Assembly (NCBI GenBank): GCA_020137815.1
Contig: CM035357.1
Location: forward strand, 124,001 to 188,000
Direction of reading: 5' to 3'
Source: Hormiphora californensis
Lineage: Eukaryota > Animalia > Ctenophora
DNA: 64,000 nt
The notes beneath the pieces are model-generated. The model had not been told where the DNA came from. It worked only from the letters and a program-made list of their open reading frames with translations, and did not search any database. Positions within the stretch are counted from its first letter, which is position 1; every line of letters begins with the position of its first letter. Made by a program: the position numbers and the translations under genes. Of the stretch, positions 59 through 64,000 are shown piece after piece.

Positions 59-3000
59 TGCCATGCAGTCAAGGATCCTTCCTGAATAAGACGAGACCTG
101 CCCGTCAGTTTTGTCAGAAATGTCCTGAGAACACCTATTGGGCCCTGAATATCACTTATGTGGTCGTTAATAAAGAGTACCAGCAGGTAATTAAATACTA
201 ATTAGGGTAATTATCTAATTACCTAATTATGTTATTATCTAATTAGGATTCATAACTTTCTTTAATTTTGAGTTCATTTTCTGAAAGGTGTATTTTACAC
301 AAAAAAAAACAATTAATAATTTTGTTAGTTAGGAAAATACTACATTGTCGAATCGTTTAAAGAGGTTAAAAACCGTTTTAGCATTAAATGTTGCATTAGT
401 TGAATTCTCGAGATTTACATTTCCTCTTTTTTATGTTCCTTGATTTGTGAATGCAATCAATTATTGATAGAACTAACAAGACAGCTTTAATGATTAAATC
501 GGTAATTGGATGTGATACATGAACCACATATTAATTGAAAATGACGTAAGAGTTAATTGTTTCGACCTTGTAACTGATCAAATTGAGAGGGTGACAGAGA
601 GACACTGATAGAGAGACATAGAGTCAACCTCTGACTGTGTAACTGAACAACAATCTAAATCATATCTCTCTTCCTGCCAAAAGAGTAATGAGGTCAATCC
701 CGAAACTTTTATAGTTGACAACATCTAACCTCCCCCTTCTCTCCCAGAAAGTTAACGGTGCCAAGTGTGTGGCATGTGCGATCTACCTGAGATCTCCAGA
801 GGGCTCCATAGACGTTACTGCATGTGTCTGTCGTGAGGGGGATTCAACTTGTGCATCTACGGGTAAGCTAATAATTCAAAACCACTTACATAGAAATAAG
901 TCATCCAGTCGAATTTTGTGTTTCATGAATGATTCCTTTACACCATGCCAGTAACTACACATTCCCCTCGTCCCCCAGATGACTCCACTAAACTATTACC
1001 CCCTTCGTCCCCAGACGACTCCACTAAACTATTACCCCCTTCGTCCCCAGATGACTCCACTAAACTATTACCCCCTTCATCCCCAGATGATATCCACTAA
1101 ACTATTACCCCCTTCATCCCCAGATGATTTCCACTAAACTATTACCCCCTTCCTCCCCAGATGACTCCACTAAACTATTACCCCCTCGTCCCCCCCCCCC
1201 CAGTAACTACACTGTATCCCCCTTCATCCCCAGATGATCTCCAGAAGAATAATCTGATGATAATTATTGGAATTATAATCACTCTAATTGCTATTGGGTT
1301 CCTTATTGGAATTCTCTTTTTCTGTAGAATGTACGGACCTGGAATATTTAGGTGAGTGAGATGCTATTTCTTGTTACTGCTGTTATTCCAGGGAGACAGA
1401 AGACATTGTCTTGCACTGTCTTCTCAATGATAAATTCTGAGGATTTTCCTGGTTAACTTATTGGTAGCTGGGAATTGGAGAGTTACAAATGACATCTCGT
1501 GTCCAAGTTCTAAGTTAGGGGAAGCCAGTACTGGGAGAGGGGGAAGTGTAAATCAGGGGGGGGGGGGTTGTTATAGACTATGTGGGAGTGTAAATCAGGA
1601 AGCTGTAACCAGGCTCCACTGGGTGGGGTTTTATACACTGTGTAATAATACACAGCAGCTGATATATTGGCCAGATGTAATGAAGAATCAGATGACATAA
1701 GGTGGCACCGAACATTTCGTATCATCTCTCTGTCTCTCCTTCTCTCTCTCTCTCTCTCTCTCTCTCTCTCTCTCTCTCTCTCTCTCTCTCTCTCTCTCTC
1801 TCTCTCTCTCTCTCTCTCTCTCTCTCTCTCTCTCTCTCTCGCTCTCTTCTCTCTCTCTCGCTCTCTCTCTCTCTCTCTCTCTCTCTCTCTCTCTCTCTCT
1901 CTCTCTCTCTCTCTCTCTCTCTCTCTTTCTCTATCTCTCTCGGTTTACCAATTAAACATACCTGTCAGAATACAGACATTCTAGCTCGAAATTGTTCTAG
2001 ATGTCTAGAGAGTGGAGGTTTCTCGCTTCTTTCTGAACTTGATATTTCCAATCTGATGCGAAATGTCAAGGTTGGCAATAATACAGTGCGAATAGCGGTT
2101 TCTTTTAAAATATTTTGTGGTGGGATTGAAATATTGAATATTAAATAGAAGGAGGAGAAAAATACATACTAAACTTGAATACATACTTGAATGTGTACTA
2201 AACTTGAATATTGGTAAGATCACTGTACTGTAATGAAGTTTTAAATATTCTCTCTCAGACCACACCTTGAAAGAACAAACGCTTTTTTAACTCCATCTCC
2301 ATTTCTCACTGCGTATTGGGATTTTGCCACTCGCGGGGTCTAGGAGACAGTCTGAACAAGGACCAGAGACACCCCCGGCCCATATTATAGTACCCCCTAC
2401 TCCAACAAGAAGCTAGCCCCCCCCCCCCCCCCCCCCCCCCACCAAGCTAGCCCCCTCCCCCACTCACACCACATTACTGTTACAGAGTGAATCGTGGTAC
2501 TGGTCACGAGAGATTGGAAACTGATGAGGAAATGACGAACGGGAAAGAATCACCTGATACAAATCTACTAGATATCGACGTGAGTTAGAAATTATTACCT
2601 GTCGTCTCTTTCCATCATTTGAGGGGGTAGTGAACACTGCATGGGTTATCATAGACCCTTCACACATGATCTCTGATCTTGAAATAATATTCCTCTTCAC
2701 ATACAAAAGGCATTGTTATGACCTGCGTTACAGCAGCGTTTCAAGTTACACTGAGCTTGATTTGTACTCGCTGGGGGACTCATTCCCCCCTCAAACTAGA
2801 TTCACAAGTAATACAATTTGAAACTGGACTCTCATTTGCTATGTTCTAACCTTGGTCGAACAAGGTAACCCCTCTCTCATTTGGGAGTCCCCCACATTCG
2901 TAGAAGAGAAGAACATTACCGAACAGTTCTACTGAACATCTAACCTCTAAAACATCTAAACAGTATGCATATATCAGGACGCCTAAAGACTTGTTTAAAA

Positions 3001-63300: not shown

Positions 63301-64000
63301 AGCAGCCCCCGCCCCTACCTGTTTTCTAGTGTGCAACAGCAGCCCCCGCCCCTACCTGTTTTCTAGTGTAGCAACAGCAGCCCCCGCCCCTACCTGTTTT
63401 CTAGAGTAGCAACAGCAGCCCCCGCCCCTACCTGTTTTCTAGTGTCGCAACAGCAGCCCCCGCCCCTACCTGTTTTCTAGTGTAGCAACAGCAGCCCCCG
63501 CCCCTACCTGTTTTCTAGTGTAGCAACAGCAGCCCCCGCCCCTACCTGTTTTCTAGTGTGCAACAGCACCCCCCCCCCCCTACCTGTTTTAGTGTAGCAA
63601 CAGAGCCCCCCGCCCACCTTTTATGTGCAACAGCGCCCCCCCTCCTTTTTCTAGAACAACAGCACCCCCGCCCCTCTTTTCTAGTGTGGAACCAGCCCCC
63701 GCCCCACCTGTTTCAAGTAGCAACAGCAGCCCCCCCCCACCTTTTATAGGTGCAACAGCAGCCCCCACCCCTACTGTTTAGGGCAACACAGCCCCCCCCC
63801 TACTGTTTTCAAGAGTAGCAACAGCAGCCCCCCCCCTACCTGTTTTCAAGAGTAGCAACAGCAGCCCCCCCCCCCTGTTTTCTAGTGTCGCAACAGCGCC
63901 CCCCCCTCCCCGTTTTAAGGTGGCAACAGCGCCCCCCCCTCCCTTTTTTTAGGTGAAAAACACCCCCCGCCCCTTTACGTTTTCTAGTGTGCAAAAGCAG
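60387..64000 (-). CDS. Kelch-repeat (KLHL-like) protein, 3' part only
   Basis: Exons 61314-61192, 60844-60664 and 60572-60387 give RIYAVGG..MEYYDPDTNQW..R, LMYVIGG..VELFDPKRDSW and VILAGG..VHCFN..R..CGMV. The preceding exon end (VGAGAAVATLENR) is the unit of the 38-bp array. Confidence 0.85.
60800..61012 (-). repeat. 78-bp triplication of a Kelch acceptor plus the first ~45 nt of the exon
   Basis: Acceptor AG at 60845-46 (real), 60923-24 and 61001-02. Confidence 0.92.
61424..64000 (-). repeat. 38-bp satellite (~65-70 copies, runs off the window) made of a Kelch exon end plus donor
   Basis: Minus-strand unit gtaggggcgggggctgctgttgccacactagaaaacag; period 38 (e.g. 62105 and 62143). Confidence 0.95.

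What the first reader, a model, noticed from the sequence alone, without database searches (positions are those of the whole stretch)
965..64000. Window-wide system: tandemly amplified splice junctions whose copies vary almost only at synonymous sites
Seen: at least 15 exon/intron junctions in 6 unrelated genes are tandemly duplicated. Acceptors: 965-1237, 6210-6745, 7311-7391, 27711-27870, 28610-28790, 49753-49815, 58750-58880, 60800-61012. Donors: 25770-25873, 31251-31310, 35050-35116, 37690-37795, 46609-47195, 51264-51363, 57305-57503, 61424-64000. The extra copies contain partial exon sequence and sit in what should be intron, yet their differences fall at third codon positions of the exon frame: Kelch gcc/gct/gcg, aca/act, cta/ctt, cta/ctc; UTP23 ctt/ctg, gta/gtt, gat/gac plus 5 of 5 in the exon 3 copy; IQCB1 ttc/ttt, ctc/cta, tat/tac; TRP ctt/ctc; HELZ gtc/gta, tca/tcg/tcc/tct. 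I saw only occasional replacement changes (e.g. ggc>tgc ~6385, aat>gat ~35066). Neutral intronic copies should mutate at all codon positions. Inference: the units are continually exchanged with the functional junction by unequal crossover or gene conversion (archiving synonymous alleles), or are actually used in splicing. This could be an undescribed mode of splice-site turnover and intron growth.
Basis: partly seen in the sequence, partly recalled or inferred. Interest (0 to 1): 0.9.

Follow-up and report, generated by a model that had tools for sequence, protein, structure and literature searches.

The report
Comb-jelly introns archive old exon ends
In this stretch of a comb-jelly genome about one splice junction in ten is copied into the neighbouring intron, and the copies differ from the working exon mostly by silent changes, likely because DNA exchange between two very different chromosome copies leaves other alleles' exon ends behind; single repeats of this kind are known in people, but such a density would mark a common route of intron growth.

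Summary
All 16 listed arrays exist, and I found two more. 16 of 154 modelled junctions have an intronic copy of their exon end, plus the Kelch donor array; all 7 modelled genes carry one. A blind self-match puts 16 of 42 local duplications across a junction, against 5-7 expected. A TRF-only list shows no such excess. Copies differ silently in 20 of 27 variants (62-74% by counting rule, so not 'almost only'); neutral copies predict 27%, copy-versus-drifting-exon 42%. Translation cannot explain this: 34 of 37 copy sites give a frameshift or stop. Two of five silent variants in a UTP23 copy sit in the other haplotype's working exon, yet the copy is neither haplotype. Two HELZ copies read through like a close relative's gene model, unlike the working donor. 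Best reading: junction-spanning minisatellites (human F7/CBS kind), formed and reshuffled by exchange between very different homologues. No RNA or long reads could be tested. The scan noted similar arrays before in other animals (sea urchin, mussel). New variant of a known kind.

The parts
964..1243 (+). Acceptor array (36-37 nt units) of an unnamed membrane-protein gene; working acceptor at 1234; exon part 4-10 nt, two replacement changes and a 1-nt deletion
6213..6744 (+). UTP23 exon-2 acceptor array, 8 x 68 nt (46 nt exon + 22 nt intron with branch-point-like CTAAC); working acceptor 6699; 3 silent, 1 replacement
   Evidence: depth hint
7312..7391 (+). Intronic copy (77 nt) of the start of UTP23 exon 3 (working exon 7454-7621); 5 of 5 differences silent, 2 shared with the second haplotype
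13308..13359 (-).
24966..25129 (-).
25745..25873 (-). IQCB1 exon-10 donor array (36 nt), working donor 25859; 1 silent
27710..27877 (-). IQCB1 exon-8 acceptor copies, working acceptor 27723; 1 silent
28605..28790 (-). IQCB1 exon-7 acceptor copies, working acceptor 28634; 2 replacement changes
31252..31314 (-). IQCB1 exon-3 donor duplication (32 nt); the in-frame donor is now GTTTGT, the consensus-like GTAAGG lies one unit downstream
35049..35116 (-). TRP-channel exon-5 donor duplication (42 nt), working donor 35097; 1 silent, 1 replacement
37684..37794 (-). TRP-channel exon-2 donor copies, working donor 37770; 1 silent
46610..47196 (-). HELZ-like exon-26 donor, 4 copies with three different intron starts besides the working one at 47160; 4 silent, 1 replacement
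49752..49825 (-). HELZ-like exon-17 acceptor duplication (48 nt, 5 nt exon)
51182..51363 (-). HELZ-like exon-13 donor array (32 nt); one intact copy, other units decayed (GT>CT)
57304..57503 (-). HELZ-like exon-6 donor duplication (179 nt with an AAAC run); exon part identical
58754..58877 (-). HELZ-like exon-3 acceptor copies, short and diverged exon part
60796..61002 (-). Kelch acceptor array, 3 x 78 nt, working acceptor 60844; 1 silent plus 1 edge call
61424..64000 (-). Kelch donor minisatellite, about 70 x 38 nt (35 nt exon + GTA); four common unit types, all synonymous, interspersed; runs off the window

Best explanation
These are short tandem duplications that span splice junctions and leave partial exon copies in introns, and their mostly silent differences likely arise because homologous chromosomes carrying different alleles exchange DNA at exon ends, so that the copies would be pieces of other working alleles. 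Shown: the copies, their excess at junctions in a blind self-match, the silent bias, strong divergence between haplotypes, and two cases where a copy's variant matches a working version elsewhere. Inferred steps: (1) junction neighbourhoods are break- or slip-prone, and repair with a template switch duplicates the junction; (2) duplicates inside an exon are purged, while junction-spanning ones are tolerated because only the exon-adjacent site is used, as in human F7; (3) allelic recombination or conversion swaps the working exon end or adds units from the homologue faster than the copies decay, at roughly 1-5 exchanges per new mutation in the unit under a crude model; (4) unequal exchange then amplifies some units into minisatellites. 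The by-products would be longer introns and changed donor or acceptor sequences.
For: 20 of 27 variants silent; 18 of 25 without two edge calls; P 3e-6 against 0.267 and 0.002 against 0.42. Kelch donor array: all four common unit types (39 of 55 units) are synonymous and interspersed. UTP23 exon-3 copy shares 7485A and 7491G with the second haplotype's working exon in sample S1, and X5 of sample S2 also has 7491G, but it lacks that haplotype's 7494C. Visible allelic exon differences are 8 of 10 silent, like the copies (40 of 410 rows were shown). A relative's gene model P0013 reads into this intron as SSSEFH, as HELZ copies 47002 and 46830 do, whereas the working donor reads SSSKFH. In UTP23 exons 2 and 3, IQCB1 exon 7 and HELZ exon 26 the outer flank differs from the inner spacer, which plain slippage does not give. 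Haplotypes differ by block indels in introns (table 5). Template-switch signs: the exon-10 donor copied next to the exon-12 donor through a shared 19-nt start, and a Kelch unit ending at a match to the upstream donor. Precedent: interallelic turnover of human minisatellites (PMC2599865) and template-switch insertions in meiotic repair (PMC7615360), both seen as passages.
Against: Numbers are small and clustered: 9 of the 20 silent variants come from two arrays. In the worst-case count the share is 18 of 29 (P 0.023 against 0.42), and without the UTP23 exon-3 copy 19 of 33 (P 0.052). Only 2 of 20 silent variants were matched to a working allele. Two arrays carry only replacement changes and two are decayed. 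The TRF-only test shows no excess of junction-spanning repeats. An earlier scan note on another genome (e1-7810567) found silent bias only among common variants. No recombination was observed; steps 1-4 are inference. The P0013 match could also reflect a recent change at the working donor alone.
Confidence: 0.55

Rival explanations
1. Plain slippage on one chromatid makes the duplicates. Afterwards the working exon drifts at silent sites while the copy decays at all sites, and chance in a small sample lifts the silent share above 42%. No exchange between alleles is needed.
For: Expected share 0.42; worst-case P values 0.02-0.05; decayed arrays and replacement-only arrays exist; purely intronic repeats also crowd the junctions (22 of 42 span or lie within 10 nt against 8-10 expected), so local instability alone explains the placement.
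Against: Does not easily give four common synonymous unit types in a 70-copy array, copy variants shared with another haplotype, or outer flanks unlike the unit spacer.
Confidence: 0.22
2. Assembly or polishing artefact: both haplotypes of a very heterozygous animal were joined head to tail, or copies were 'corrected' with reads of the other allele.
For: The source is very heterozygous; parts of the window look like unpolished long-read sequence (about 14150-15560 and 63550-64000); no contig listed is shown to bridge a unit-to-unit joint; two-copy cases are the expected form of such an error.
Against: Arrays of 4, 8 and about 70 units, with up to four states at one codon, exceed two haplotypes. 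The UTP23 exon-3 copy differs from both haplotypes at 7494 versus the second and at five sites versus the first. Summed contig depth over the UTP23 array region is 2.1-2.7 times the one-copy expectation in S1 and 5.6 times in S2; this is a rough hint only, since the tool warns that such depth is no copy number. Read errors would not favour third positions.
Confidence: 0.08
3. The copies are used in splicing and are kept under selection for the protein they encode.
For: All 45 copies found without demanding GT/AG still have it; units carry whole 3' splice signals; 3 of 37 copy sites would give an open in-frame insert (BBS2 33 nt, TRP exon 5 42 nt, HELZ 46830 330 nt); CBS and 6-16 use some pseudo-sites (PMC1557585). 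UTP23 exon-2 and Kelch acceptor units hold an internal AG|GT, so a copy could in principle supply part of the exon.
Against: 34 of 37 copy sites give a frameshift or stop; reading through the Kelch donor meets TAG at once (read); relatives' proteins follow the exon-adjacent site at the three junctions checked. That search missed the decayed GT>CT units of HELZ exon 13.
Confidence: 0.07

Closest known systems
Minisatellites whose first monomer spans an exon-intron boundary: human F7 IVS7 (37 bp), CBS IVS13, 6-16, LMNB2, PDGF (PMC1557585; abstract, passages of introduction and discussion, reference list)
   Same: Tandem units of about 30-100 nt repeat a splice site into the intron; the exon-adjacent site is the main or only one used.
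   Different: The human examples are single donor loci. Here there are donors and acceptors at about one junction in ten, in all 7 modelled genes, with long exon parts (up to 77 nt) whose differences look allelic. Site use was not tested on RNA here.
Interallelic turnover of human hypervariable minisatellites, with variant repeats and active ends at recombination hotspots (PMC2599865; abstract and passages)
   Same: Interspersed variant unit types (Kelch array) and inferred transfer between alleles.
   Different: Here one end unit is a working exon end, so selection filters the variants that enter; no germline mutation data exist.
Template-switch insertions and microhomology-mediated repair at meiotic breaks (PMC7615360; passages)
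   Same: Side-by-side duplications and mixed templated insertions with short shared ends.
   Different: Human hotspot data; no link to splice junctions was seen in the passages read.
Intron gain by tandem duplication of an AG|GT-containing exon segment (PMC3265369; search listing only, mechanism recalled)
   Same: Tandem duplication of coding sequence at splice-like motifs.
   Different: There a new intron is born inside an exon; here existing junctions are copied and existing introns grow.
Tandem exon duplication with mutually exclusive splicing (recalled)
   Same: Exon sequence is duplicated next to its source.
   Different: The copies here are partial, carry one splice site only, and mostly break the frame.

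Membership tests
Junction-spanning minisatellite (F7/CBS type) | Tandem units of about 10-100 nt | tested here: met
   26-78 nt units in most arrays; three are longer (139, about 158-172, 179 nt)
Junction-spanning minisatellite (F7/CBS type) | End unit spans the exon-intron boundary and repeats the splice site in the intron | tested here: met
   16 of 154 junctions plus the Kelch donor array
Junction-spanning minisatellite (F7/CBS type) | Exon-adjacent site is the one used | tested here: inconclusive
   Open frames and relatives' proteins agree at 3 junctions; no RNA test was possible
Junction-spanning minisatellite (F7/CBS type) | Copy number varies between individuals | tested here: inconclusive
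   Depth excess differs between S1 and S2, but contig depth is no copy number
Interallelically evolving minisatellite | Variant repeat types interspersed along the array | tested here: met
   Kelch array, order of 55 units
Interallelically evolving minisatellite | Units transferred between alleles in the germline | not testable with these tools
   Only indirect: variants shared with another haplotype
Alternative or mutually exclusive duplicated exons | Complete copies with both splice sites and a kept frame | tested here: not met
   Partial copies; 34 of 37 give a frameshift or stop
Intron gain by AG|GT tandem duplication | Duplicate lies inside an exon and creates a new intron | tested here: not met
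   All copies lie in introns at existing junctions; sub-splicing at the internal AG|GT of two unit types is untested

The most novel reading that the evidence does not exclude
In hyper-polymorphic animals, exons are the only reliable islands of homology between chromosomes. Meiotic repair starts in them, runs into mismatched introns and switches template, so it keeps pumping other alleles' exon ends into introns in a polarised way. This would be a genome-wide engine of splice-site replacement and intron growth at about a tenth of all junctions, would leave a readable archive of past alleles, and would force exon-anchored splice-site choice in an early-branching animal.
Probability: 0.3. Interest if true: 0.8.

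Novelty: new variant of a known kind. Interest (0 to 1): 0.55.

Why it matters
If the density holds genome-wide, thousands of junctions would carry built-in decoy splice sites with silent barcodes. That makes two open questions directly testable by long-read cDNA and a few phased genomes: how a spliceosome picks among identical donors and, less studied, identical acceptors; and whether recombination is drawn to exon edges when introns differ strongly between homologues. It also warns annotators and assemblers that such copies mimic alternative exons or haplotype merges.

Tried and rejected
No whole genome is held, so no genome-wide scan. No RNA holder listed; the one guessed RNA run covered 1 of 30 bins; neither is evidence on expression. 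No relative of the TRP exon in metagenome contigs (64 pattern hits, 0 confirmed), so no other ctenophore's introns could be compared. No Rfam match in the window. The UTP23 homologue search gave one short hit. The decoy AG/GT control was set aside because its pool contains the arrays. The TRF-only enrichment test was negative; it lost the Kelch 78-mer and the 172-mer to my filter and misses gapped duplications, so I rely. One copy position (58872) was off by one; read at the right place it still meets a stop. Literature searches for a genome-wide report of this pattern found none. In the H. californensis genome paper (PMC8527503, passages) 'junction' occurs 0 times and 'tandem' only in methods and references; its supplements were not seen and may bear on novelty. 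PMC12783039 (passages) concerns intron-internal repeats and is not relevant.

Full report
Source and gene models. The large TRP-channel exon is 90% identical to an EukProt protein with an 'sb/' id and 64% to a Mnemiopsis leidyi protein. That 'sb' ids belong to Pleurobrachia bachei is recalled, not from a call. The window also holds, near 40890-40924, a match to the spliced leader printed for Hormiphora californensis. The animal is therefore a ctenophore, likely a pleurobrachiid; the species is not established. They give 154 GT/AG junctions and 74 introns. The TRP model matches P0002 at 735 of 791 columns without a gap at any of its 6 junctions. HELZ phases were set per exon from open frames; a few HELZ exons and a garbled BBS2 stretch (about 14150-15560) are missing from the models.

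The observation. 12 of 154 junctions have a copy with exon-side score of 8 or more, 16 of 154 at 4 or more. All 7 genes carry at least one. Two cases are new: a BBS2 acceptor duplicate, and four copies of the IQCB1 exon-10 donor sitting behind the exon-12 donor.

Is it more than chance? Three tests disagree in part. Decoy AG/GT sites in introns have a copy at 11-13%, no less than real junctions, but the pool includes the arrays. A TRF list gave 6 of 47 spanning against 5.2 expected, and 14 of 47 within 10 nt against 8.0 (P 0.02); it lost several arrays. A blind ungapped self-match that counts each event once gave 12 of 36 against 5.3 and, with simple runs masked, 16 of 42 against 5.1-7.2 (P 2e-5 to 6e-4), and 22 of 42 spanning or within 10 nt against 8.3-10.4. 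I take a two- to three-fold excess as likely, from one window only. Introns with junction copies have median length 486 nt (n=16) against 200 (n=58).

Codon bias. Counting each distinct change once per array, over 395 copied exon sites, 20 of 27 are silent; 19 fall on 130 third positions and 8 on 265 others. Two calls at copy edges are doubtful, leaving 18 of 25. A neutral copy predicts 0.22-0.27. A neutral copy set against an exon that drifts only silently predicts 0.42. P is 3e-6 and 0.002. Adding four replacement changes that my extension rule cut off (HELZ exons 3 and 13, judged by eye) gives 18 of 29, P 7e-5 and 0.023. With the Kelch donor it is 24 of 38, P 0.007 against 0.42; without the single UTP23 exon-3 copy it is 19 of 33, P 0.052. 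In the Kelch donor array I read 55 units (61401-63540; the degraded rest was left out). The four common types, 39 units, encode the same peptide and are interspersed; GCG>GTG occurs twice, one unit has a two-base replacement, and 9 units lack one base. So the bias is real but is 'mostly', not 'almost only'.

Are the copies used? Taking each of 37 copy sites as the splice site gives a frameshift or stop in 34; three stay open in frame. Reading through the Kelch donor meets TAG directly. Relatives' proteins follow the exon-adjacent site at TRP exons 2 and 5 and HELZ exon 26. Selection on a protein made from the copies is thus an unlikely cause. No RNA test was possible.

Are the copies other alleles? 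Contigs of four runs were laid on 2000-9500 (40 of 410 difference rows and 15 of 24 joints shown). X1 and X3 are one sample, S1, possibly the assembly's source; X5 is another sample. S1 shows a second haplotype with block indels in introns and, among visible rows, 10 exon differences, 8 silent. Its working UTP23 exon 3 carries 7485A and 7491G, both found in the intronic copy; X5 has 7491G too. It also carries 7494C, which the copy lacks, and no rows were shown at 7479 or 7497. The copy is thus a third version. Separately, the relative's model P0013 runs into the intron after HELZ exon 26 as SSSEFH, the read-through of copies 47002 and 46830, while the working donor gives SSSKFH. In four arrays the outermost flank is unlike the spacer inside the array. 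Two breakpoints point to template switching between similar donors. A crude model needs about 1-5 allele exchanges per new mutation in a unit to reach 60-76% silent; I assume that is plausible at high diversity (3.2% heterozygosity is reported for H. californensis, PMC8527503).

Artefact? More than two states per site, arrays of up to about 70 units, the third-version copy, and a depth excess over the UTP23 array region of 2.1-2.7 times (S1) and 5.6 times (S2) argue against it. The depth figure is rough, and no unit-to-unit bridging contig was seen in the shown rows.

Comparison. Each array works like, and by the tests I could run belongs to, the junction-spanning minisatellites of human F7, CBS, 6-16, LMNB2 and PDGF (PMC1557585: abstract, passages). 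Interallelic turnover is described for human minisatellites (PMC2599865, passages) and template-switch insertions for meiotic breaks (PMC7615360, passages). Nine searches found no report of such density or of allele-like copies; subscription papers and supplements were not seen. Earlier notes of this scan describe similar arrays in a sea urchin, a mussel and other invertebrates, unchecked by me, so the pattern is probably not special to ctenophores.

Verdict. Real and more than chance on the better test; known element type; new in density and in the allele signature; mechanism inferred at 0.55. Interest 0.55.

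Noticed in passing
window 11261-16179 and 24971-25859: Twelve matches (up to 1 mismatch) to a palindromic X-box-like motif, against 0.05 expected; all lie in the two ciliary genes BBS2 and IQCB1, several forming the first bases of introns and being tandemly amplified. 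The RFX X-box label and consensus are recalled.
   Followed up: partly
window about 40890-40924: A spliced-leader-like site matching the ctenophore leader printed in PMC8527503, about 300 nt before a LINE-like element.
   Followed up: partly
window about 41200-44210: A LINE-like element on the + strand, with a gag-like ORF and endonuclease and reverse-transcriptase-like coding, apparently with an internal deletion; judged by eye.
   Followed up: no
window about 17270-18650, - strand: A GPCR-like gene nested in a BBS2 intron on the same strand as its host; judged by eye.
   Followed up: no
window about 55300-56450: A long ORF-bearing insertion on the - strand in a HELZ intron, likely a mobile-element remnant.
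   Followed up: no
window 16975-17027, 30567-30843, 35449-35723, 52784-52913, 53861-53900: Purely intronic tandem arrays that begin within about 2-17 nt of a donor, without exon sequence.
   Followed up: partly
window about 46560-46600, - strand: A short hairpin with a C-TTCG-G loop followed by CTAG, just behind the outermost HELZ exon-26 copy; it may be a mobile-element end.
   Followed up: no
window about 14150-15560 and 63550-64000: Sequence looks unpolished; BBS2 exons there could not be modelled.
   Followed up: partly
window 6313: A contig of run X5 has 7 extra letters here inside the exon part of a unit, which may mark a different array unit in sample S2 (table 4).
   Followed up: no
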